Source: Candidatus Bathyarchaeota archaeon
GTDB lineage: Archaea; Thermoproteota; Bathyarchaeia; Bathyarchaeales; Bathycorpusculaceae
NCBI GenBank assembly: GCA_963715865.1
Contig: OY970280.1
Location: 1,472,001-1,536,000 of the forward strand
Reading direction: 5' to 3'
DNA length: 64,000 bases
Below are positions 19,112-27,555 of the stretch, piece after piece; the first letter of the stretch is position 1, and each line of letters opens with the position of its first letter. The position numbers were made by a program, and so were the translations under genes. The notes under the pieces are model-generated. The model ran no database searches. It saw nothing but the letters and a program-made list of their open reading frames with translations, and was not told where the DNA came from.

Positions 19112-19336
19112 CATTTGCGTCCGCTACTGCGCCCCGTGTTTTTTAACATCAAAAAAGCGGTATTAAGCGTGTAAGCGCCAACAAAAAGATAGCTTTCTTT
19201 GCATTAACAAAATAGCATAGCGAAAATGATTCAACCATGCAGGTCATGGGAATAATCAGCACCAACATGTCAAATTGTTTTAATAATACGCTTTTCAATA
19301 GATACGACGCTCCAATGTAGAGGCAAAGAAACCTTA

Positions 19337-21262
19337 ATGCTAATCCAAGAAGTTATACTTGAAAACTTCATGAGTTACGAGTACGCTAGAGTACCGTTTA
19401 AACCTGGCGTAAACGTGATTGGTGGACCCAACGGAGCAGGAAAATCCTCACTGCTGCTGGCAATATCTGTTGCCTTGGGACAATCATACACGGAACGCTC
19501 AAGAAAACTCAGCGATTTAATCCGCTGGGGAAAAGACCAAGCGCGAGTAACGCTCATTTTAGATAACAGCAAAATGGGAAACAAACGCCCAGTACCAAAA
19601 TATCTAAAAGACCAACTGTTCCTAACCCGCGTGTTGCGCCGTGACGGCAAATACGGGTTTGAACTTGAAAACCGAGCCGTCGGCAAACAAGATGTTGAAA
19701 GGTTACTCGGCAGGTTCGGCGTTGACCCAGACAACATGCTCATCATCATGCACCAGAACATGGTTGAACAATTCACCGTGTTGAGCAATACAGAAAAACT
19801 ACGCATGGTTGAAGAAGCAGTCGGCTTAGAACCTTTCCGCGAAAACGTCCTGCAAGCAAAAACAAAACTTATGCGAATTCTCACACAAGAAGAATCCGTA
19901 AGCAAACTTTTAGAGTCAGCACAGCAAACGCTCAATTACTGGCGTGAACAATACGAAAAATACCAAGAAAAAAAGCAACTGCAGATTAAACGGAGATTTT
20001 TGGACCGCGAATTAACTTGGGCAGAAGTTGAAAGACGCGAAAGCATAGTTAAAAGTTTACAATCAAACCTGAACAAAAACCAAGAAGCGCTTAGCAAAAT
20101 CGAAGAGGAAAAACAAGCCATAATTACCCAACTAAACAATCAGCAGAACCAGCAGGAAACACTGAAAAAAGAAGCCAGGACAGTTTTTGATGAACGATTA
20201 AGCCTTGAACACGAAATCGCTCAAAACCAATCCACACAGTCACTGATTGGACAGTTGCTTGAAGAAACACAAGTGCTGGAGCAAGCAATCCAGAACAGCA
20301 AAGGCCAACTTAAGCTGCTTAGAAACGAAAACCTTAAAGAAATGCTGAAAAACTCACAGCAGCAAATCTCCAAGGCAAACGAGCAAGTCAAAGAGAACCA
20401 AGCAAAAATGCTCAATCTGGAAGAATCAGCTGACAAGGTTACAGGCGAAGTGTTAGAGAAACGGGTAAACCTTGCCCTGCTTGAGTATAAGCGAGCAAAC
20501 GCAATTGTCAACCTAAAAGACATTGAAAAATCGCTAAAGGAAGCCCAAGAAAACTTAAAGACAACATTTCTTAATGCGGAACAGTCTGGTGAACGAATAG
20601 CAGTTTTAAAAAGCGCTTCTGAAATCCAAGATGAAATCAGCTTAACAGGTGGACACTTAGCAGCACTTGCCGACGTTTCAGAAGACATAGAACGCCAGTA
20701 CGAATCCTACTCGAAACTTTACTTAGAGCTGAAGGAAAAAGCACAACTTGTAGCTGAAAACCGCGAGAAAACCCTCGAAGAAGTCAAAATCAGAATGCAA
20801 GCATGGCGAACAGTCATGCAAAACCTGCTTGACCGAGTGAACTTGGAATACCAGAAAATCATGAGACAAACCTTAGCAGCAGGCGAAGTGCAACTATCAA
20901 ATGCTCAAGACATTGAAACTGCTGGATTAGAAATACTCGTTGGCTTCAAAGGCGGAAAACCAGTAGCATTAGACGCTTACACGCAAAGCGGCGGCGAAAG
21001 AACCACAGCAACCATGAGTTTTCTCTTAGCCTTGCAGCAGCATGTACGCTCACCATTCCGAGCAGTAGACGAATATGATATTCACATGGACCCGAAAAAC
21101 CGCGAAATGATTGCAAAAATCCTTCTTTCCATTATTAAAGATGCAAACGCTCAATACGTGGTAATCACTCCAAGCCAAATCACCTTTGCCCAGCAAAACG
21201 CTAACGTCATTACGGTTCAGAATATTGAAGGAAAATCAGTTGTTCGTGAGGTGGCGGCATAA
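19337..21262 (+). CDS. Short SMC-family ATPase (SMC5/6-like motifs; coalescin/ASRP-type)
   Basis: ENFMSY, Walker A GPNGAGKS, Q-loop HQN, about 330 aa mostly coiled coil, QSGGER signature, Walker B/D-loop PFRAVDEYDIHMD; 641 aa. Confidence 0.88.
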   Translation: MLIQEVILENFMSYEYARVPFKPGVNVIGGPNGAGKSSLLLAISVALGQSYTERSRKLSDLIRWGKDQARVTLILDNSKMGNKRPVPKYLKDQLFLTRVLRRDGKYGFELENRAVGKQDVERLLGRFGVDPDNMLIIMHQNMVEQFTVLSNTEKLRMVEEAVGLEPFRENVLQAKTKLMRILTQEESVSKLLESAQQTLNYWREQYEKYQEKKQLQIKRRFLDRELTWAEVERRESIVKSLQSNLNKNQEALSKIEEEKQAIITQLNNQQNQQETLKKEARTVFDERLSLEHEIAQNQSTQSLIGQLLEETQVLEQAIQNSKGQLKLLRNENLKEMLKNSQQQISKANEQVKENQAKMLNLEESADKVTGEVLEKRVNLALLEYKRANAIVNLKDIEKSLKEAQENLKTTFLNAEQSGERIAVLKSASEIQDEISLTGGHLAALADVSEDIERQYESYSKLYLELKEKAQLVAENREKTLEEVKIRMQAWRTVMQNLLDRVNLEYQKIMRQTLAAGEVQLSNAQDIETAGLEILVGFKGGKPVALDAYTQSGGERTTATMSFLLALQQHVRSPFRAVDEYDIHMDPKNREMIAKILLSIIKDANAQYVVITPSQITFAQQNANVITVQNIEGKSVVREVAA

Positions 21263-22089
21263 TGCAGTCAACGAAAGAACCCAAGAAACTAGGCAGAGAA
21301 AGACTTGAACGCATAATTGAAATGTGTATTGTCATAGAAAACCACACTGTAGACCCTTTCACGCTAAATATTGACGAAATAATCAAAGTAGTCAAAGAGT
21401 ATTTTCCGCACTGGCAAAACCCTGACGAGTTAAAACTAGACGCTGAAACGCTTCACCATTTAGCTTCAGTTATTAAATTGCAAAGTGAATGGGTGAAACA
21501 GAGATCAACTTCGCTTTACACTGACCCGTTTCTTTTAGAAGAAAAAATCCTGCAAATAGGCAAGCAAGAGATGGTTAATGTTTTTCTTAAGGCGTGGCAT
21601 CCACTAATCGAGTTTGAACAGATTAGCCTTAACAGTTTGGCGCAGGGATTGCTCTATTGGGAAGCGTTGGCTCCTCTTGGCGAACGATGGAAAGACCTTG
21701 ATGTTTCTGAGGTTTCAATGGGTTTTGCAAGCAGAGATGAATTGATTAAGCAAGGAGTTTTAGGCGATAGGGAGTTTTCTGAGGAATTGAATTGTTACTG
21801 GCAAGAACTCAGAGATTGCGTTGCCAAGAAAGGACAAGATGGCAAAATCCAATATTGGGATTTTATTGGCGCTGACACTTACGAAGAAACAGTTCAAAGA
21901 GCTTTCTTAACGAGTTTTTTGGTTACTTATGGCTACGCAACGTTGGAGATTGACAGGTTAGAAGAGCAAGTTTTCATTAAACCCTTCGATAAACAGAAAA
22001 CGGAAATTTTAACGCAACAGTCAACATCGGTTCCCATTGCCGTCTCATTTGAAGATTGGCAGAAATGGAAAAGAGGCGAATTAGATTGA
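21262..22089 (+). CDS. Kleisin-like protein (ScpA/Nse4-like)
   Basis: N-terminal DPFTLNIDEIIKVVKEY...LASVIKLQSEWV and C-terminal WDFI...EETVQRAFLTSFLVTYGYATLE...VFIKP resemble ScpA N- and C-domains; TAATG overlap with SMC stop. Confidence 0.6.
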   Translation: MQSTKEPKKLGRERLERIIEMCIVIENHTVDPFTLNIDEIIKVVKEYFPHWQNPDELKLDAETLHHLASVIKLQSEWVKQRSTSLYTDPFLLEEKILQIGKQEMVNVFLKAWHPLIEFEQISLNSLAQGLLYWEALAPLGERWKDLDVSEVSMGFASRDELIKQGVLGDREFSEELNCYWQELRDCVAKKGQDGKIQYWDFIGADTYEETVQRAFLTSFLVTYGYATLEIDRLEEQVFIKPFDKQKTEILTQQSTSVPIAVSFEDWQKWKRGELD

Positions 22090-22703
22090 GCAAGAAAAAA
22101 GGCGTTTACGGTAGCAAAGTGAAGAAGACAACGCAGATGCTCTTCTACAAGCGACACCAAAAACCAGGCGTTAAAGGTTGGGAACTACGCAAAGCGTTAG
22201 GTTCAGATTACCCTAAAGTGCTTGATTTACTTGATGATTACTTGAAACCGCTGGATTTGCAGGTTAAAACTGTTTTTGAAGAAGAGAAAACTCCAGAGAA
22301 GCCAACGTTAGAGGAGCTTGATAAGGCAAGGTTCTATGTTGCTTTGCGTGGCGATTTGCCTGTTAAGGATAAACTGCTGGGTTGGCGCATTGACGATTTA
22401 GCAGGCTTAGCCATAACAATCTCTTTCATAATCAGCAAGAAAGGGCAAGTAGCACGCAAAGACGTTGAAAAACTGCTCAGCGAGAAGATGCCGAACTGGA
22501 AAGTTGGCTTAAACATTGACAGGTACATTCGCTACGGCTACTTAACGCAAGATGATAATGGTCAATTGTTTCTGGATTGGAGAACAAGGGCAGAAGTGGA
22601 CCAAAAAGCGCTTATCAACATGCTGCTGTCAACTGACGCACAAAAAGCAGAAACCGCTGAACCTAAGGAAGAAGAACCTCAAGAACAAGAAAACGAGCAA
22701 TAG
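22086..22703 (+). CDS. Tandem winged-helix KITE-like protein (MAGE/Nse3/ScpB-like)
   Basis: LDDYLKPLDLQVKTV, GLAITISFIISKKGQV...DRYIRYGYL resemble MAGE WH-A/WH-B; TTG at 22086 overlaps kleisin TGA (TTGA); ORF track starts at 22056. Confidence 0.5.
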   Translation: MSKKKGVYGSKVKKTTQMLFYKRHQKPGVKGWELRKALGSDYPKVLDLLDDYLKPLDLQVKTVFEEEKTPEKPTLEELDKARFYVALRGDLPVKDKLLGWRIDDLAGLAITISFIISKKGQVARKDVEKLLSEKMPNWKVGLNIDRYIRYGYLTQDDNGQLFLDWRTRAEVDQKALINMLLSTDAQKAETAEPKEEEPQEQENEQ

Positions 22704-23413: not shown

Positions 23414-23725
23414 TTATTCTTTAATTTCTTCTGTTATTTTGAGAATTTCTGAGTCCCCGGCTTCTCTTATGCTTAATGCTGATATAATAAAGAGTTTTTT
23501 GCAGACTTCCGCTAAATCCATTGAGCCACCTTTGTATGTTATCACGGGGACTTTAGAGATTTCACCATAGTATTCTATCTGTTCTTTTATGTCTTTTGGA
23601 CAGTTAGAGGCTAAAACTATCATCTTAGCCTTGCCAGTTTTAGCGTTTTGCAATGCAACATTGGATCCGAAAGATACTTTGCCAGTTTTCACTGCTGTCG
23701 CTAACGCTTTATCTATATCTATCAT
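23414..23725 (-). CDS. rpl30e: 50S ribosomal protein L30e
   Basis: ALATAVKTGKVSFGS, KAKMIVLASNCP; canonical position between rpoA and nusA. Confidence 0.93.
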   Translation of the reverse strand: MIDIDKALATAVKTGKVSFGSNVALQNAKTGKAKMIVLASNCPKDIKEQIEYYGEISKVPVITYKGGSMDLAEVCKKLFIISALSIREAGDSEILKITEEIKE

Positions 23726-26700
23726 GCTTCTGTTTTTCCTCCTTGTTTTACTTGCTTTTCAAACGTTGACATATACAACTCAACTAAGCCTGTGCCGATC
23801 GGTATCGACTGCCCGACTATAACGTTTTCTGTTACACCTGCCAACGGGTCAATTTCACCTTTCACCGCTGCTTCAACAATGTTAGGCACTGTAATTTCGA
23901 ATGCCGCTCGAGCTAAAACACTTGCTTTCTTGCCGCTAATGCCGTGCCTGCCAATCTGCTGCACATCACCTGTTGTAGTCATCATGTCTGCTACGAGCAT
24001 GACATGGCGTACATCAACATCTAAGCCTTGGTCCTCCAAGACGCCTTTTGCCTCGTTGACTAACGCGTTTCTTGAAGCTTCCACACCGAGAGTTTTAGCT
24101 ATTTCGTGAATGTTGTTGGTGGTTGTTCGTGAAGTGTCTACACCTTTAACCTCTAAGACTTTAGATAGGTTGGAGCCGTCAGTTCGTATTACCCATTCTC
24201 CGTGTTCTTCAGTAACCAGCACACGTTTAATGTCGGGTACACCTTTAACTTGAAAACTTGGAATCTTGGTTAGCAGTCTCTTTAGTTGTTCAGCTTTTTT
24301 CGGCTTAATCTGCACTGTATCATCAGTAACTGTAACAGTTGCGTTTTGCAATTCCATCCGTTCTTTTAGCTCATCCATTGTTATGGCTCTGTCTTCCATC
24401 ATTGACTTGTTTAATTCAATAACGATTTCCTCGCGCACAGGGTCTTCGTAGATTGCTGAAGCCAAGTCTTCTACAGAAGTGTAAATTATGTTTCGAGCGA
24501 TTTCCACTGCGCTCTCTTTGTTCTTCGCATGTTCGCCATTTAAGTAGATGGCCATGATTGGCGTTGAAGGAATCCTGCGTGCATCAACAATTTCAATGAG
24601 TCTTGGCAAGCCTAAGGTGACGTTTTGTTCTTTGACACCAGCATAGTGGAAGGTTCTAAGAGTCATTTGAGTGCCTGGTTCACCTATTGATTGAGCAGCA
24701 ACGATTCCAACTGCTTCACCTGGCTCCATTAAAGCACGCTTATACTGCTCAGCAGTCAAAGTTGCGGCTTTTTCAACACCTTTCTTGGTAAGTTTGTTCT
24801 TTGCGAAGTTTTGTTTAAGCTGATTCATCAAAATCGGCGTAAGCTGCTTCTCAACACCTTTCAACTGTTTCTTGATGTCCTCTGGAGATGCTGGTTCACC
24901 TTTTTCTTCGCCGATTTTTATTTGGTCAATGAGTCGGCTTACGTTTACTGCTTTGCCGTGGTCGCTTTTAGCTGGGTCAACACCGTCTTCGCCATACCTG
25001 AACTGGATGATGTCGCCTGCTGAATCACGTACTGTGCTGTCGTATTCAAGACGGATGTGTTCAAGCGCGTTGATTAGCCTTCGCTGCATGTAACCGCTTT
25101 GTTGTGTGCGGACGGCTGTGTCAACTAGGCCTTCTCTGCCACCCATAGCGTGGAAGAAGAATTCAATCGCATCCAAGCCTGTCTGGTAAGAATTGTAGAC
25201 GAAGCCTCTTGCTCTTGGACTTGGGTCGCCATCAACAAAGTGCGGTAACGCTCTTCCTGCGTAGCCCCTTAGGATACGTTTGCCTCGCACTGATTGTTGT
25301 CCAACGCAAGCAGCCATTTGACCAATGTTTAAGCTTGAGCCTCTTGCGCCGGTTCTTGTCATGACGATGCCTGCGTTTTCTAGTGTGAAGTCTTCGTCTG
25401 CTATTTTGCCTGCTTCATCTCTGGCTGTGGCAAGTTCGTGCATGACGTAGATTTCGAAGGATTCCTCTAAGGTTTGTCCTGGCAAGCGTGGTAATTTTCC
25501 GTTGCGGTAGTTTTCGATGTGTTCATCGATTTTCTTTTGGATGCGTTCCATTGTTTTTGCTATGCGGTTGCGGGCTCTCGGCGAGAGAACTAGTTGGTCG
25601 TAGGTGTAGCTGAAGCCTCGCATTGAAATGAATAGCTTTAGCAAGTGAGTTATCTTATTGAGGAATTCTCGTCCTGCTTGGGTGCCGTAATCTTTGATAA
25701 TTCTGTGAAGGAGACTTTCGGATTGCTCAGCACCGATTGAACGCCTATCAATGATGCCTGAAACTAACTGGCCATTTTTGACCACTACGTAAGCGTCGTG
25801 CTTGCACTCTTCTTCTTCACATTTAGTGCAGCCTTGACAAATATTGGCTTTCAAAACGTAATTCAACGTTTTCGGCAGAAATAGGCTGAATATTTGTTTG
25901 CCTGACCACATGGGTTGCGGCGTCTTAATTTCTGGTTCTGGCAGTTCCTCAACGTATCCTGTTGTAGTTAGCAGCCTGTTAACCTCGCCTCTTGTCAAGT
26001 AGTTTCCTTTTCGAGTAAAATAATAGGCACTTGTGATAAAGTCCCTTATAGCACCGATAATGGGTCCGCCAAATCTGGGCGAGAGGATTTGGTCTTGAAC
26101 CTGCATTAGAAGGAGTGCTTCTGTTCGTGCTTCTTCACTTTGTGGAACGTGAAGGTTCATTTCGTCGCCGTCAAAGTCAGCGTTGTAAGGTGGGCAAACA
26201 CATAGGTGCAGGCGGAAAGTCTTGTATGGCAAAACCCGTACGTAATGAGCCATGATGGACATGCGGTGAAGTGAAGGCTGCCGGTTAAAGATTGCAATAT
26301 CACCGTTCTTGAGGTGCCGTTCAACTACGAACCCTAACTCTACTGCTTCAGCGATTTTGGTTCGGTCAACAACGAATTCTAGCCTTATGCGCTTGCCATC
26401 TGGCCTAATAATGTATAATGCGCCAGGATAGTTTTCTGGACCGTTAACTACGAGTTTCTTCATTTCCTCAATATTCCATGCAGTAACTTTTTCTGGCACA
26501 GATAACCGCATGGCAATATCCTGCGGAACACCAACCTCGTTAATGTCAAGGTTCGGGTCGGGAGAAATGACCGTGCGTGCTGAAAAGTCAACTCGTTTGC
26601 CTGAAAGGTTGCTTCTGAAGCGACCTTCCTTTCCCTTGAGCCTTTGCGAGAGAGTTTTTAATGCTCTGCCACTGCGGTGTCTTGCCGGCGGAATGCCTGA

Positions 26701-27555
26701 GGCTTCATTGTTAAAGTATGTAGTAACATGGTACTGTAAAAGCTCAGATAGGTCTTGAATGATGAGTGTAGGTGCACCTGCGTCCATGTTTTCCTTCAAG
26801 CGCTGATTGATGCGGATAATGTCTACTAGCTTATGGGTTAAATCGTCTTCTGAACGGATACCTGATTCTAAAGTGATGGATGGACGAACATAAACTGGCG
26901 GTACAGGCAAAACCTGCAGAACCATCCATTCTGGGCGTGCAACTTTCGGGTTGAAACCCAAAATTTCAAGGTCCTCGTCTGAGACGCGTTCAAGTCTTTC
27001 ACGAATCATGCTGGGTGTCAATGGCTCGGAGCCTGCTTCAGTCTGCTCAATAAACTTGGTTGGCTTCTCAAAAGTAATCTTGTACTGAACCGCTGCGCAG
27101 TAGGGGCACTGTTTTGCTTTAATTTCAGTCATTATTTCCTTGTAAACTTCATCTGGAATTGTGCCTAAAAGCTCGTTGAGCCGTTCAATTCGAGCACGCG
27201 CCTTCTTATCGGCATCTTCAGATAAAAGTATGCGGCCACAACTACGGCAGGTGGCTTTTAGAAGGTCAAAAATAATTTTGGTAAATTCTATATGTACGAT
27301 TGGTACGGCTAATTCGATGTGTCCAAAGTGGCCTGGGCAGCGGATAGCGGTGTTGCCACAGGTTTTGCAGCGCTGCCTTGGCTCGAGTGTGCCTAATCTG
27401 CCATCCATTAAGCCAGCAGTGATGGGTGCGCCGTCTTCGTCATAGGTGTCGGGGGCTTGGATTTCAACGACTGATTGTTTACGGAGGTCTTTGGGTGAAA
27501 TTAAACCGAATGAAATTTCATCAACTATTTTATGGATTAATTCTTCCGTTGACAT
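23722..27555 (-). CDS. rpoA: RNA polymerase largest subunit, A' and A'' fused
   Basis: CPGHFGHI, RFRSNLSGKRVD, NADFDGDEMN active site, continuing in frame into AAQSIGEPGTQMTLRTFH (A''). Confidence 0.97.
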   Translation of the reverse strand: MSTEELIHKIVDEISFGLISPKDLRKQSVVEIQAPDTYDEDGAPITAGLMDGRLGTLEPRQRCKTCGNTAIRCPGHFGHIELAVPIVHIEFTKIIFDLLKATCRSCGRILLSEDADKKARARIERLNELLGTIPDEVYKEIMTEIKAKQCPYCAAVQYKITFEKPTKFIEQTEAGSEPLTPSMIRERLERVSDEDLEILGFNPKVARPEWMVLQVLPVPPVYVRPSITLESGIRSEDDLTHKLVDIIRINQRLKENMDAGAPTLIIQDLSELLQYHVTTYFNNEASGIPPARHRSGRALKTLSQRLKGKEGRFRSNLSGKRVDFSARTVISPDPNLDINEVGVPQDIAMRLSVPEKVTAWNIEEMKKLVVNGPENYPGALYIIRPDGKRIRLEFVVDRTKIAEAVELGFVVERHLKNGDIAIFNRQPSLHRMSIMAHYVRVLPYKTFRLHLCVCPPYNADFDGDEMNLHVPQSEEARTEALLLMQVQDQILSPRFGGPIIGAIRDFITSAYYFTRKGNYLTRGEVNRLLTTTGYVEELPEPEIKTPQPMWSGKQIFSLFLPKTLNYVLKANICQGCTKCEEEECKHDAYVVVKNGQLVSGIIDRRSIGAEQSESLLHRIIKDYGTQAGREFLNKITHLLKLFISMRGFSYTYDQLVLSPRARNRIAKTMERIQKKIDEHIENYRNGKLPRLPGQTLEESFEIYVMHELATARDEAGKIADEDFTLENAGIVMTRTGARGSSLNIGQMAACVGQQSVRGKRILRGYAGRALPHFVDGDPSPRARGFVYNSYQTGLDAIEFFFHAMGGREGLVDTAVRTQQSGYMQRRLINALEHIRLEYDSTVRDSAGDIIQFRYGEDGVDPAKSDHGKAVNVSRLIDQIKIGEEKGEPASPEDIKKQLKGVEKQLTPILMNQLKQNFAKNKLTKKGVEKAATLTAEQYKRALMEPGEAVGIVAAQSIGEPGTQMTLRTFHYAGVKEQNVTLGLPRLIEIVDARRIPSTPIMAIYLNGEHAKNKESAVEIARNIIYTSVEDLASAIYEDPVREEIVIELNKSMMEDRAITMDELKERMELQNATVTVTDDTVQIKPKKAEQLKRLLTKIPSFQVKGVPDIKRVLVTEEHGEWVIRTDGSNLSKVLEVKGVDTSRTTTNNIHEIAKTLGVEASRNALVNEAKGVLEDQGLDVDVRHVMLVADMMTTTGDVQQIGRHGISGKKASVLARAAFEITVPNIVEAAVKGEIDPLAGVTENVIVGQSIPIGTGLVELYMSTFEKQVKQGGKTEA

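What the first reader, a model, noticed from the sequence alone, without database searches (positions are those of the whole stretch)
19337..22703. Candidate archaeal proto-SMC5/6 complex: short SMC + kleisin-like + single MAGE/Nse3-like KITE in one coupled operon
Seen: three genes joined by TAATG (21260-21264) and TTGA (22086-22089) overlaps. Gene 1 is a 641-aa SMC-type ABC ATPase, about half canonical SMC length, with no Cys pair for a Rad50 zinc hook and no obvious globular hinge. Its head motifs (ENFMSY, QSGGERT...FLLALQ, PFRAVDEYDIHMD) look like eukaryotic Smc5/Smc6 rather than condensin Smc. Gene 2 has ScpA-like N- and C-terminal kleisin motifs. Gene 3 has a tandem winged-helix layout like MAGE/Nse3. 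Established: eukaryotic SMC5/6 uses the Nse4 kleisin and Nse1/Nse3 KITEs; Sulfolobus coalescin (ClsN) and Halobacterium Sph are short archaeal SMC relatives usually described without such partners. Inference: a homodimeric SMC-kleisin-KITE complex that could resemble the ancestral state of SMC5/6 and act in chromosome organisation or extrachromosomal DNA restriction.
Basis: partly seen in the sequence, partly recalled or inferred. Interest (0 to 1): 0.88.

Follow-up and report, generated by a model that had tools for sequence, protein, structure and literature searches.

The report
Hinge-less archaeal Smc5/6-like operon
Three overlapping genes of a Bathyarchaeia archaeon encode the already published archaeal relative of the eukaryotic Smc5/6 chromosome-maintenance complex. 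Its one under-described trait is that the ATPase has half-length arms and no hinge, which my tree suggests is a secondary loss rather than an ancestral state.

Summary
Three coupled genes (19337-22703, +) encode a 641-aa SMC ATPase, a 275-aa kleisin and a ~205-aa tandem winged-helix KITE.

Identity is well supported:
- The SMC scores higher against yeast and human Smc5/6 than against its own genome's canonical SMC.
- The kleisin matches only Nse4.
- The KITE model's best structural matches are Nse3, Nse1 and MAGE.
- The gene order is kept in 37 of 40 sampled Thermoproteota loci and in an Asgard genome.

This family is already published (Yoshinaga & Inagaki 2021; van Hooff et al. bioRxiv 2024/25, whose table lists Bathyarchaeia). 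This scan reported the same operon six times before, in other Bathyarchaeia genomes. It is therefore not a new "proto-SMC5/6".

What the papers I could search do not mention is that the SMC has no hinge. Its arms plus apex span 302 residues with no Pro and no Cys, and the apex is unconserved.

New here:
- Hinge-bearing relatives with the same operon branch outside the short clade, so hinge loss looks derived.
- A stand-alone long paralog with a CxxC motif at the apex is nested within the short clade.
- In some families no canonical SMC was found.

The function is inferred, not shown.

The parts
19279..19289 (+). TATA-like A/T box (TTTTAATAATA) about 50 nt upstream of the SMC start. A GAGG lies at 19320-19323. 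This is a putative promoter and ribosome-binding site.
   Evidence: Read directly from the sequence. Inference only; no promoter test was done.
19337..21262 (+). Gene 1: 641-aa SMC5/6-related SMC ATPase (short, hinge-less)
   Evidence: Pfam SMC_N 6e-30. Best PDB sequence hits are Smc5 at 2e-29 and Smc6 at 3e-25. After its own family, the next full-length hits among 1.84e9 representatives are eukaryotic Smc5/6.
19337..19861 (+). N-terminal head half (aa 1-175), with Walker A GPNGAGKS at aa 30-37 (19424-19447) and Q-loop Q140
   Evidence: These residues are invariant in the 33-sequence alignment A3.
19862..20767 (+). Arms plus apex (aa 176-477). There is no Pro and no Cys. A conserved joint-like spot lies at L222/E225/W228 and A414/G418. 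The apex, around aa 285-355 (midpoint near G323, about 20300), is unconserved and varies in length.
   Evidence: Conservation profile, residue counts, and no hinge family match.
20768..21259 (+). C-terminal head half (aa 478-641): signature QSGGER (20984-21001), Walker B FRAVDE (21056-21073) and an ITP motif at aa 610-612, in the QY..ITP stretch that aligns with yeast and human Smc5
   Evidence: Alignments to yeast and human Smc5; invariant columns.
21262..22089 (+). Gene 2: 275-aa Nse4-like kleisin. N-terminal helical domain at aa 5-111 (21274-21594), low-confidence linker at aa 112-171, and C-terminal winged helix at aa 172-241 (21775-21984).
   Evidence: Pfam Nse4_C hits 17 of 18 orthologs, best 3.4e-7. 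The profile finds only Nse4/EID3 in the PDB, E about 1e-3. AF2 model. Top Foldseek hits are yeast Nse4 chains.
22086..22703 (+). Gene 3: about 205-aa KITE, with alternative starts at 22056 and 22065. WH1 is aa 3-87, WH2 is aa 102-163, followed by a C-terminal helix and an acidic tail. It has no Cys and therefore no RING.
   Evidence: AF2 pLDDT 82. Foldseek top hits are Nse1 and Nse3, E 4e-5 to 9e-5. VIA-align gives Z 12.3 over 172 residues to 7dg2_C, then MAGE-G1, yeast Nse1/3, JetB and ScpB.

Best explanation
This is the Bathyarchaeia copy of the published archaeal 'SMC5/6-related' complex: one SMC ATPase, one Nse4-type kleisin and one Nse1/3-type KITE, translated from a tightly coupled operon. 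It sits in a genome that also has a separate canonical Smc-ScpA-ScpB operon.

Inferred mechanism, by homology with solved Smc5/6, MukBEF and Smc-ScpAB structures:
- Two SMC copies engage their heads on ATP.
- The kleisin N-terminal helices bind one SMC neck and its C-terminal winged helix binds the other SMC's cap.
- A KITE dimer sits on the kleisin middle.
- DNA is clamped on top of the engaged heads, and ATP hydrolysis releases or moves it.

The special trait is shown only at the sequence level. The arms are about 150 residues each, roughly 20-22 nm, and end in an unconserved turn with no hinge and no zinc hook. The two SMCs are therefore probably held together only through heads, kleisin and KITEs. 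That favours a DNA-clamping or bridging role in genome maintenance over a large hinge-closed ring. Phylogeny suggests this short form arose by hinge loss and arm shortening from a hinge-bearing ancestor.
For: SMC identity:
- P0001 scores 106 bits against yeast Smc5 and 88-92 bits against Smc6. It scores 83 bits against Pyrococcus Smc and only 51 bits against its own genome's canonical SMC.
- In 1.84e9 representatives, the hits after the archaeal family are eukaryotic Smc5/6 at 120-135 bits.
- JGI names some orthologs 'SMC protein 5'.
- The ATPase motifs are invariant across 33 orthologs.

Kleisin: Nse4_C hits 17 of 18 orthologs. The PDB profile finds only Nse4/EID3. The model has a helical N-terminus, a disordered middle and a C-terminal winged helix, and its top fold hits are Nse4.

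KITE: a tandem winged-helix model with top hits to Nse3, Nse1 and MAGE-G1, Z 10-12.

Operon conservation:
- 20 of 20 Bathyarchaeia loci and 17 of 20 other Thermoproteota loci keep the order SMC-kleisin-KITE.
- The kleisin is found in 164 of 201 Bathyarchaeia genomes and 140 of 301 Thermoproteota genomes, nearly all-or-none per family.
- The same operon occurs with hinge-bearing SMCs in L184, L185 and Asgard L186.

Second, canonical operon: SMC of 1183 aa, a ScpA-like protein and ScpB at C1:140.8-145.6 kb.

Hinge-less form:
- In 88 short-form sequences the arms plus apex span 211-344 aa, and none has a CxxC.
- The apex is the least conserved region and is rich in indels.
- There is no SMC_hinge match.

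Derived state: in the head tree rooted on 8 canonical SMCs, the SMC5/6-related clade is supported at 100/99. Asgard P0457 (Pfam SMC_hinge, 43.6 bits) is basal. P0421, which has a weak SMC_hinge match, is sister to the short clade at 95/89.

Context: neighbours are housekeeping genes (H+-PPase, NusA, L7Ae-family ribosomal protein, RpoA, RpoB), with no nuclease or mobile-element genes.

Literature: PMC8665677 and bioRxiv 10.1101/2024.01.07.573240.
Against: No biochemical or genetic data exist for any member, so complex formation, stoichiometry and DNA clamping are inferred from homology and gene order.

The SMC itself was not folded here. 'No hinge' rests on length, composition, conservation and the lack of family matches. 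A small, unconserved apex contact cannot be excluded.

The KITE has no significant sequence match to Nse1/3; Pfam SMC_Nse1 hits only 2 of 21 orthologs at E 0.02. Its assignment rests on a predicted fold, and JetB, ScpB and MukE score only a few Z units lower.

The tree uses heads only and few hinge-bearing archaeal sequences. It contains one very long branch (P0495). Several key nodes are below the 95/80 mark.
Confidence: 0.85

Rival explanations
1. Same three-subunit complex, but the two arms do associate at the apex through a weak, sequence-variable coiled-coil contact. It would then form a normal closed SMC-kleisin ring and entrap or extrude DNA like other SMC complexes, only on a smaller scale.
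For: All well-studied SMC complexes are dimerised distal to the heads. Arm length varies by paired indels around the apex, as expected if an antiparallel hairpin must be kept. A stand-alone paralog nested in the short clade carries a CxxC at the apex, which suggests that distal dimerisation can matter in this lineage.
Against: Across 88 sequences the apex has no conserved residue, no Cys and no globular insert. No hinge family matches.
Confidence: 0.3
2. The complex is mainly an immunity or restriction system against plasmids and viruses, working like Wadjet/MksBEFG or like human Smc5/6 on episomal DNA.
For: The KITE model also resembles JetB at Z 9.3. Published work links Smc5/6 and Wadjet to restriction of extrachromosomal DNA (PMC10586767, listed).
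Against: No nuclease (JetD/MksG type) or other defence gene lies next to it. PADLOC gives no match for the kleisin or KITE and only generic ABC-ATPase matches for the SMC; JetC scores 37 bits. The operon is single-copy, sits among housekeeping genes, and is distributed nearly all-or-none by family, as for a vertically inherited core gene set. In families f37 and f38 no canonical SMC was found, so there it may be the main SMC complex.
Confidence: 0.12
3. A Rad50/SbcC-like or other SMC-related repair ATPase (ASRP, arcadin-4, coalescin type) that only superficially resembles Smc5/6.
For: It is short and lacks a hinge, like several SMC-related proteins. NCBIfam gives weak partial hits to Rad50, ASRP and arcadin-4.
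Against: All of those hits are far below their cut-offs: ASRP 75 against 300, Rad50 73 against 700, and arcadin-4 51 against 860. SMC_prok_A scores 173 bits and Smc5 106 bits. There is no CxxC and no Mre11 neighbour. A kleisin and a KITE are encoded alongside, and these are not partners of Rad50.
Confidence: 0.03

Closest known systems
Archaeal 'SMC5/6-related' SMC-kleisin-kite complex (Yoshinaga & Inagaki 2021, PMC8665677; van Hooff, Raas, Tromer & Eme, bioRxiv 10.1101/2024.01.07.573240)
   Same: Same family: an SMC that groups with Smc5/6, an Nse4-related kleisin, an Nse1/3-like kite and a shared operon. It co-exists with a canonical SMC set in TACK archaea, and Bathyarchaeia are listed in their tables.
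   Different: Nothing differs at the family level. The papers removed the coiled coils from their alignments, and neither the main text nor the supplements held here discuss arm length or the missing hinge. In their downsampled data only 2 of 9 species had the SMC next to the kleisin. Here 37 of 40 loci have all three genes adjacent.
Eukaryotic Smc5/6 holocomplex (Smc5-Smc6, Nse4, Nse1-Nse3, Nse2, Nse5/6; e.g. PDB 7QCD, 7TVE)
   Same: Head sequence motifs (TQSGGER, PFR.VDE, QY..ITP), the Nse4-type kleisin C-terminal domain, and the tandem winged-helix KITE fold.
   Different: There is one SMC gene, so a homodimer is expected, and one KITE rather than the Nse1/Nse3 pair. There is no RING (the KITE has no Cys) and no Nse2 or Nse5/6 in the operon. 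There is no hinge. Arms plus apex span about 300 residues, against about 690 in the eukaryotic proteins.
Prokaryotic Smc-ScpAB
   Same: SMC homodimer + kleisin + KITE architecture, encoded in an operon.
   Different: The genome has its own canonical set elsewhere. The kleisin and KITE here do not match the ScpA or ScpB families. There is no hinge, and the arms are about a third as long.
Engineered Bacillus Smc with shortened arms or with a Rad50 zinc hook in place of the hinge (Bürmann et al. 2017; recalled from memory, not read here)
   Same: Shows that SMC function can tolerate a changed apex and altered arm length. The natural short form and the CxxC paralogs look like natural counterparts.
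   Different: Those are laboratory constructs that still dimerise distally. The protein here has no recognisable dimerisation element.

Membership tests
Archaeal SMC5/6-related complex | SMC heads closer to Smc5/6 than to canonical SMC | tested here: met
   Bit scores are 106 (Smc5), 88-92 (Smc6), 83 (Pyrococcus Smc) and 51 (own canonical SMC). Eukaryotic Smc5/6 are the next hits in the representative library. The head tree separates it from canonical SMC at 100/99.
Archaeal SMC5/6-related complex | Nse4-related kleisin encoded next to it | tested here: met
   Nse4_C hits 17 of 18 orthologs, though P0002 itself scores 25.0 bits against a cut-off of 26. The PDB profile finds only Nse4/EID3. The top fold hits are Nse4.
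Archaeal SMC5/6-related complex | Nse1/3-like kite next to the kleisin | tested here: met
   Met by predicted fold only: Z 12.3 to 7dg2_C, then MAGE-G1 and yeast Nse1/3. Sequence evidence is weak.
Archaeal SMC5/6-related complex | Three genes co-localised and conserved in TACK and Asgard archaea, separate from a canonical SMC set | tested here: met
   for conservation; the canonical operon is shown.
Eukaryotic Smc5/6 holocomplex | Smc5-Smc6 heterodimer joined by hinge domains | tested here: not met
   There is a single SMC gene in the operon, and no SMC_hinge match even at E<=10 on the apex. Only 302 residues lie between the heads.
Eukaryotic Smc5/6 holocomplex | Nse1 RING, Nse2 SP-RING and Nse5/6 subunits | tested here: not met
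   The KITE has no cysteine. No further conserved same-strand gene lies in the operon. Nse2 and Nse5/6 were not searched genome-wide.
Smc-ScpAB (canonical prokaryotic condensin) | SMC hinge, ScpA kleisin and ScpB kite families | tested here: not met
   P0001-P0003 give no SMC_hinge, SMC_ScpA or SMC_ScpB match at E<=1. The genome's canonical set does match: ScpB at 2e-37 and ScpA at 4e-5.
Rad50/SbcC | CxxC zinc hook at the apex; Mre11/SbcD partner | tested here: not met
   P0001 has no Cys. No nuclease neighbour is present. Rad50 models score at most 73 bits against cut-offs of at least 700.
Wadjet / MksBEFG | JetC/MksB-type SMC with JetA/B and a JetD/MksG nuclease | tested here: not met
   PADLOC gives JetC at 37 bits only, nothing for the kleisin or KITE, and no nuclease gene is adjacent.
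ASRP / arcadin-4 (archaeal SMC-related proteins) | Score above the NCBIfam equivalog cut-off | tested here: not met
   ASRP scores 74.7 against a cut-off of 300, and arcadin-4 scores 50.8 against 860.

The most novel reading that the evidence does not exclude
A large clade of Thermoproteota runs a naturally hinge-less, half-length SMC-kleisin-KITE machine that arose from a hinge-bearing Smc5/6-type ancestor. In some families it is the only SMC complex found. In a few Bathyarchaeia it gave rise to a stand-alone, re-elongated paralog whose apex carries a CxxC motif resembling a Rad50 zinc hook. If true, distal dimerisation through a hinge is dispensable for the core job of an Smc5/6-type complex, and nature has repeatedly swapped the apex module.
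Probability: 0.45. Interest if true: 0.7.

Novelty: new variant of a known kind. Interest (0 to 1): 0.42.

Why it matters
The identity of the operon adds nothing new, because the archaeal SMC5/6-related complex is published. The architecture may matter. Current models of SMC action (ring entrapment, and loop extrusion with hinge-head cross-talk) assume long arms joined at a hinge. A natural, conserved SMC-kleisin-KITE set with arms of about 20 nm and a bare apex would be a minimal system for testing which activities need the hinge. In some lineages it seems to be the only SMC complex. It also cautions against reading the TACK form as the 'ancestral' Smc5/6, because hinge-bearing Asgard and other archaeal relatives with the same operon branch outside it.

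Tried and rejected
- **Complex prediction**, two copies of the arm region (A3 residues 200-450): verdict 'no answer', score 0.27 against a mark of 0.42, controls not run. It says nothing for or against apex dimerisation.
- **The search for related loci in genome contigs** with the kleisin alignment returned only close Bathyarchaeia relatives, so it did not reach other phyla.
- **The genome search with L163 as a handle:** the record is not held. I could not check directly whether that genome also has the short operon, so I used the class sample instead.
- **Pfam on the CxxC region** of the long paralogs found no Rad50 zinc-hook family match, only noise. 'Zinc hook' is therefore a motif-level resemblance only.
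- **P0444** was labelled hinge-bearing by eye, from a non-coiled middle region. It has no Pfam hinge match.
- **ESM Atlas:** no model is held for P0001, and the feature neighbours are its own family plus generic SMC_N clusters.
- **H-loop as a diagnostic:** the genome's canonical SMC has ITL rather than ITH at that position. The ITP motif in the stretch that aligns with Smc5 is suggestive, not diagnostic.
- **RNA evidence:** one peat metatranscriptome run holds 5% of the sampled words. When laid, its contigs are from relatives (85-97% identity). They cover parts of the SMC and span both gene junctions. Contigs in an RNA library do not prove transcription or a single transcript.
Full report
**What is there.** The window is G000:C1:1472001-1536000 of a closed 2.35-Mb genome. 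Near-identical database proteins are named Candidatus Bathyarchaeia.

- 19337-21262 (641 aa);
- 21262-22089 (275 aa), joined to the first by a TAATG overlap;
- 22086-22703 (205 aa), joined to the second by a TTGA overlap. In-frame alternative starts lie at 22056 and 22065.

An A/T-rich box and a GAGG precede gene 1. The flanks are housekeeping genes: NucS, two pyrophosphatases and a methyltransferase upstream; NusA-KH, an L7Ae-family ribosomal protein, RpoA and RpoB convergent downstream. No nuclease, integrase or defence gene is adjacent.

**Gene 1.** Pfam calls SMC_N at 6e-30. NCBIfam gives its best score to SMC_prok_A (173 bits). Rad50, ASRP, arcadin-4 and RecN models stay far below their cut-offs.

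Bit scores rank as follows:

| Target | Bits |
|---|---|
| Yeast Smc5 | 106 |
| Human and yeast Smc6 | 88-92 |
| Pyrococcus Smc | 83 |
| Own genome's canonical 1183-aa SMC | 51 |

An exhaustive phmmer search of 1.84 billion cluster representatives found only 143 proteins at E<=1e-30. After the archaeal family itself, the next full-length hits (120-135 bits, 1036-1144 aa) are eukaryotic. Those that carry names are Smc6 of a chytrid and an insect and Smc5 of a tick. Unnamed or generically named ones come from an oomycete, a yeast and a choanoflagellate.

Residue-level alignments show shared TQSGGER, PFR.VDE..MDP.N and QY..ITP blocks with Smc5. Walker A, Q-loop, signature and Walker B residues are invariant across 33 orthologs, so this is a working ATPase under selection.

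**Gene 2.**
- Pfam Nse4_C matches P0002 at 2e-5 (25.0 bits against a cut-off of 26) and 17 of 18 orthologs, best 3.4e-7.
- A profile of 18 orthologs finds only Nse4 and its human paralog EID3 in the PDB, E about 1e-3, aligned over the C-terminal winged helix.
- The AF2 model (pLDDT 74) has three N-terminal helices, a low-confidence middle and a C-terminal winged helix, which is the kleisin layout.
- Its best Foldseek hits are yeast Nse4 chains, followed by ScpA, Brn1 and Scc1 C-terminal domains.

**Gene 3.** There is no significant sequence match; SMC_Nse1 hits 2 of 21 orthologs at E 0.02. The AF2 model (pLDDT 82) is a tandem winged helix.
- Foldseek ranks Nse1 and Nse3 of 7DG2 first (E 4e-5 to 9e-5), then MAGE-G1/NSE1 and JetB.
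- VIA-align gives Z 12.3 over 172 residues to 7dg2_C and Z 10.3-11.1 to MAGE-G1 and yeast Nse1/3. JetB scores 9.3 and ScpB 9.0.
- The protein has no cysteine and therefore no RING.

**Conservation.**
- The kleisin is found in 164 of 201 sampled Bathyarchaeia genomes, and in 102 of 121 high-quality ones.
- Its profile is found in 140 of 301 Thermoproteota genomes, nearly all-or-none per family: 17/17, 19/19, 11/11 and 10/10 in four families, against 0/50, 0/22 and 0/14 in three others.
- All 20 Bathyarchaeia loci fetched and 17 of 20 loci from other Thermoproteota families have SMC-kleisin-KITE in the same order.
- The genome also has a canonical operon: an 1183-aa SMC with a hinge-like region, a ScpA-like 234-aa protein and ScpB at C1:140.8-145.6 kb.
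- With the canonical SMC as query, nothing was found in families f37 (0/6), f38 and f40, although f37 and f38 carry the short operon. There the short complex may be the only SMC complex.

**Already known.** Yoshinaga & Inagaki 2021 (PMC8665677) defined 80 'SMC5/6-related aSMC' homologs, mostly from TACK archaea and including Bathyarchaeota, as the closest relatives of Smc5+Smc6. van Hooff et al. (bioRxiv 10.1101/2024.01.07.573240) showed that Nse4 groups with TACK and Asgard kleisins. They also showed that an Nse1/3-like kite type is archaeal and that many archaea carry two complete SMC complexes in distinct operons. Their Table S3 lists Bathyarchaeia genomes.

This scan has also reported the same operon six times before, in other Bathyarchaeia genomes, with the same reading.

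**What the papers do not discuss.** The words hinge, shorter and truncated are not applied to the archaeal proteins in the main text or the supplements held here, and the coiled coils were removed from their alignments.

Features of the SMC between its heads:
- It has 302 residues there, with no Pro and no Cys.
- The apex, about aa 285-355, is the least conserved part and is rich in indels. A joint-like spot (W228, G418) is conserved.
- In 88 short-form sequences the inter-head region spans 211-344 residues and none has a CxxC.
- For comparison, eukaryotic Smc5/6 have 655-790 residues there and canonical SMC 782-843.
- No hinge family matches.

The representative search also found three other kinds of relative.

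1. Hinge-bearing relatives:
   - P0457 (Candidatus Freyarchaeum, Asgard, 835 aa) matches Pfam SMC_hinge at 43.6 bits.
   - P0421 (982 aa) has a weak SMC_hinge match, E 0.0065.
   - P0444 (928 aa) has a globular middle with no family match.
   - All three are followed by homologs of this kleisin and KITE. The E-values are 6e-33 and 1e-30 for L184, 2e-44 and 2e-14 for L185, and 2e-10 and 4e-13 for L186. The Asgard locus also has an AAA gene upstream.

2. Long relatives of 1016-1047 aa, 36-41% identical, labelled Bathyarchaeota:
   - They carry a C-[DE]-[KR]-C-G-S motif near the arm midpoint.
   - They stand alone, without a kleisin or KITE within 6 kb in two contexts.
   - They occur in 7 of 10 genomes of one Bathyarchaeia family plus one other genome, and all of those genomes also have the kleisin. 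They are therefore paralogs.

3. A head-domain tree (IQ-TREE, LG+C20, 54 sequences, rooted on eight canonical SMCs):
   - It separates canonical SMC from all the rest at 100/99.
   - It puts the Asgard protein near the base.
   - It groups P0444 with eukaryotic Smc5 and Smc6 at 97/86.
   - It makes P0421 sister to a clade of all short forms at 95/89.
   - The CxxC forms are nested within that short clade. Forcing the short forms to be monophyletic without them costs 22.7 log-likelihood units (p-AU 0.033, a post hoc test).

The simplest reading is that a hinge was ancestral, that one loss with arm shortening gave the short clade, and that arms later re-elongated with a new CxxC apex in a paralog. 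Sampling is thin, one branch is very long and several nodes are moderate, so this is a working hypothesis.

**How it probably works.**
- Shown: three conserved, coupled genes with intact ATPase motifs, kleisin and KITE folds, and Smc5/6-type affinities.
- Inferred from solved homologs: ATP-engaged SMC heads, a kleisin bridging one SMC's neck and the other's cap, a KITE dimer on the kleisin, and DNA clamped on the heads.
- Inferred from sequence: no distal dimerisation element, hence a small clamp or bridge rather than a large hinge-closed ring.

The chromosomal housekeeping context and the vertical distribution argue for genome maintenance rather than a mobile defence module. A role against extrachromosomal DNA cannot be excluded.

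**Verdict.** Interest is moderate and lies in the hinge-less architecture and the apex swaps, not in the existence of the operon.

Noticed in passing
Proteins P0380, P0381, P0393 (also P0429, P0430); loci L160, L163, L164-L171: Stand-alone paralogs of this SMC, 1016-1047 aa, occur in a few Bathyarchaeia families. They have about 700 residues between the heads and a C-[DE]-[KR]-C-G-S motif near the arm midpoint, which resembles a Rad50 zinc hook. No kleisin or KITE lies nearby. They are nested within the short clade in my tree.
   Followed up: partly
Loci L140, L142, L147, L148, L151-L155, L157, L158; also L184: An Lhr-type helicase of about 950 aa (DEAD, Helicase_C, WH_Lhr, DEAD_assoc) lies just downstream of the operon in 11 of 20 non-Bathyarchaeia Thermoproteota loci, convergent to it. 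It also lies near the hinge-bearing operon in L184. This is a possible DNA-repair link. It is not present in this window.
   Followed up: partly
Loci L044, L048, L049, L051, L139, L140, L142, L144, L146, L150, L157, L158 (and a fragment in L040): A conserved protein of about 230 aa with no Pfam match is transcribed divergently just upstream of the SMC gene in 13 of 40 loci. No homolog was found in this genome by tblastn.
   Followed up: partly
window 23722-27555 (-): RNA polymerase subunit A is one 1277-aa ORF carrying Rpb1 domains 1-5. In most archaea, as I recall, it is split into A' and A''.
   Followed up: no
G000:C1:443211-445298 (-), outside the window: A third SMC_N-type ORF of 695 aa is unrelated to P0001 at the sequence level (8 bits). 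It may be a short Rad50-like protein. Its neighbours were not examined.
   Followed up: no
Loci L050, L051, L058 (genomes G081, G174, G123): In three assemblies of a single contig each, the SMC gene upstream of the kleisin appears split or truncated (181 aa; 201 + 457 aa; 194 aa). These may be frameshift errors of long-read assemblies or real decay. This was not resolved.
   Followed up: no
Families f37 and f38 of the phylum sample (e.g. G205, G212, G219, G206): These genomes carry the short SMC5/6-like operon, but no canonical SMC was found with this genome's canonical SMC as query at E<=1e-30. The short complex may be their only SMC complex.
   Followed up: partly
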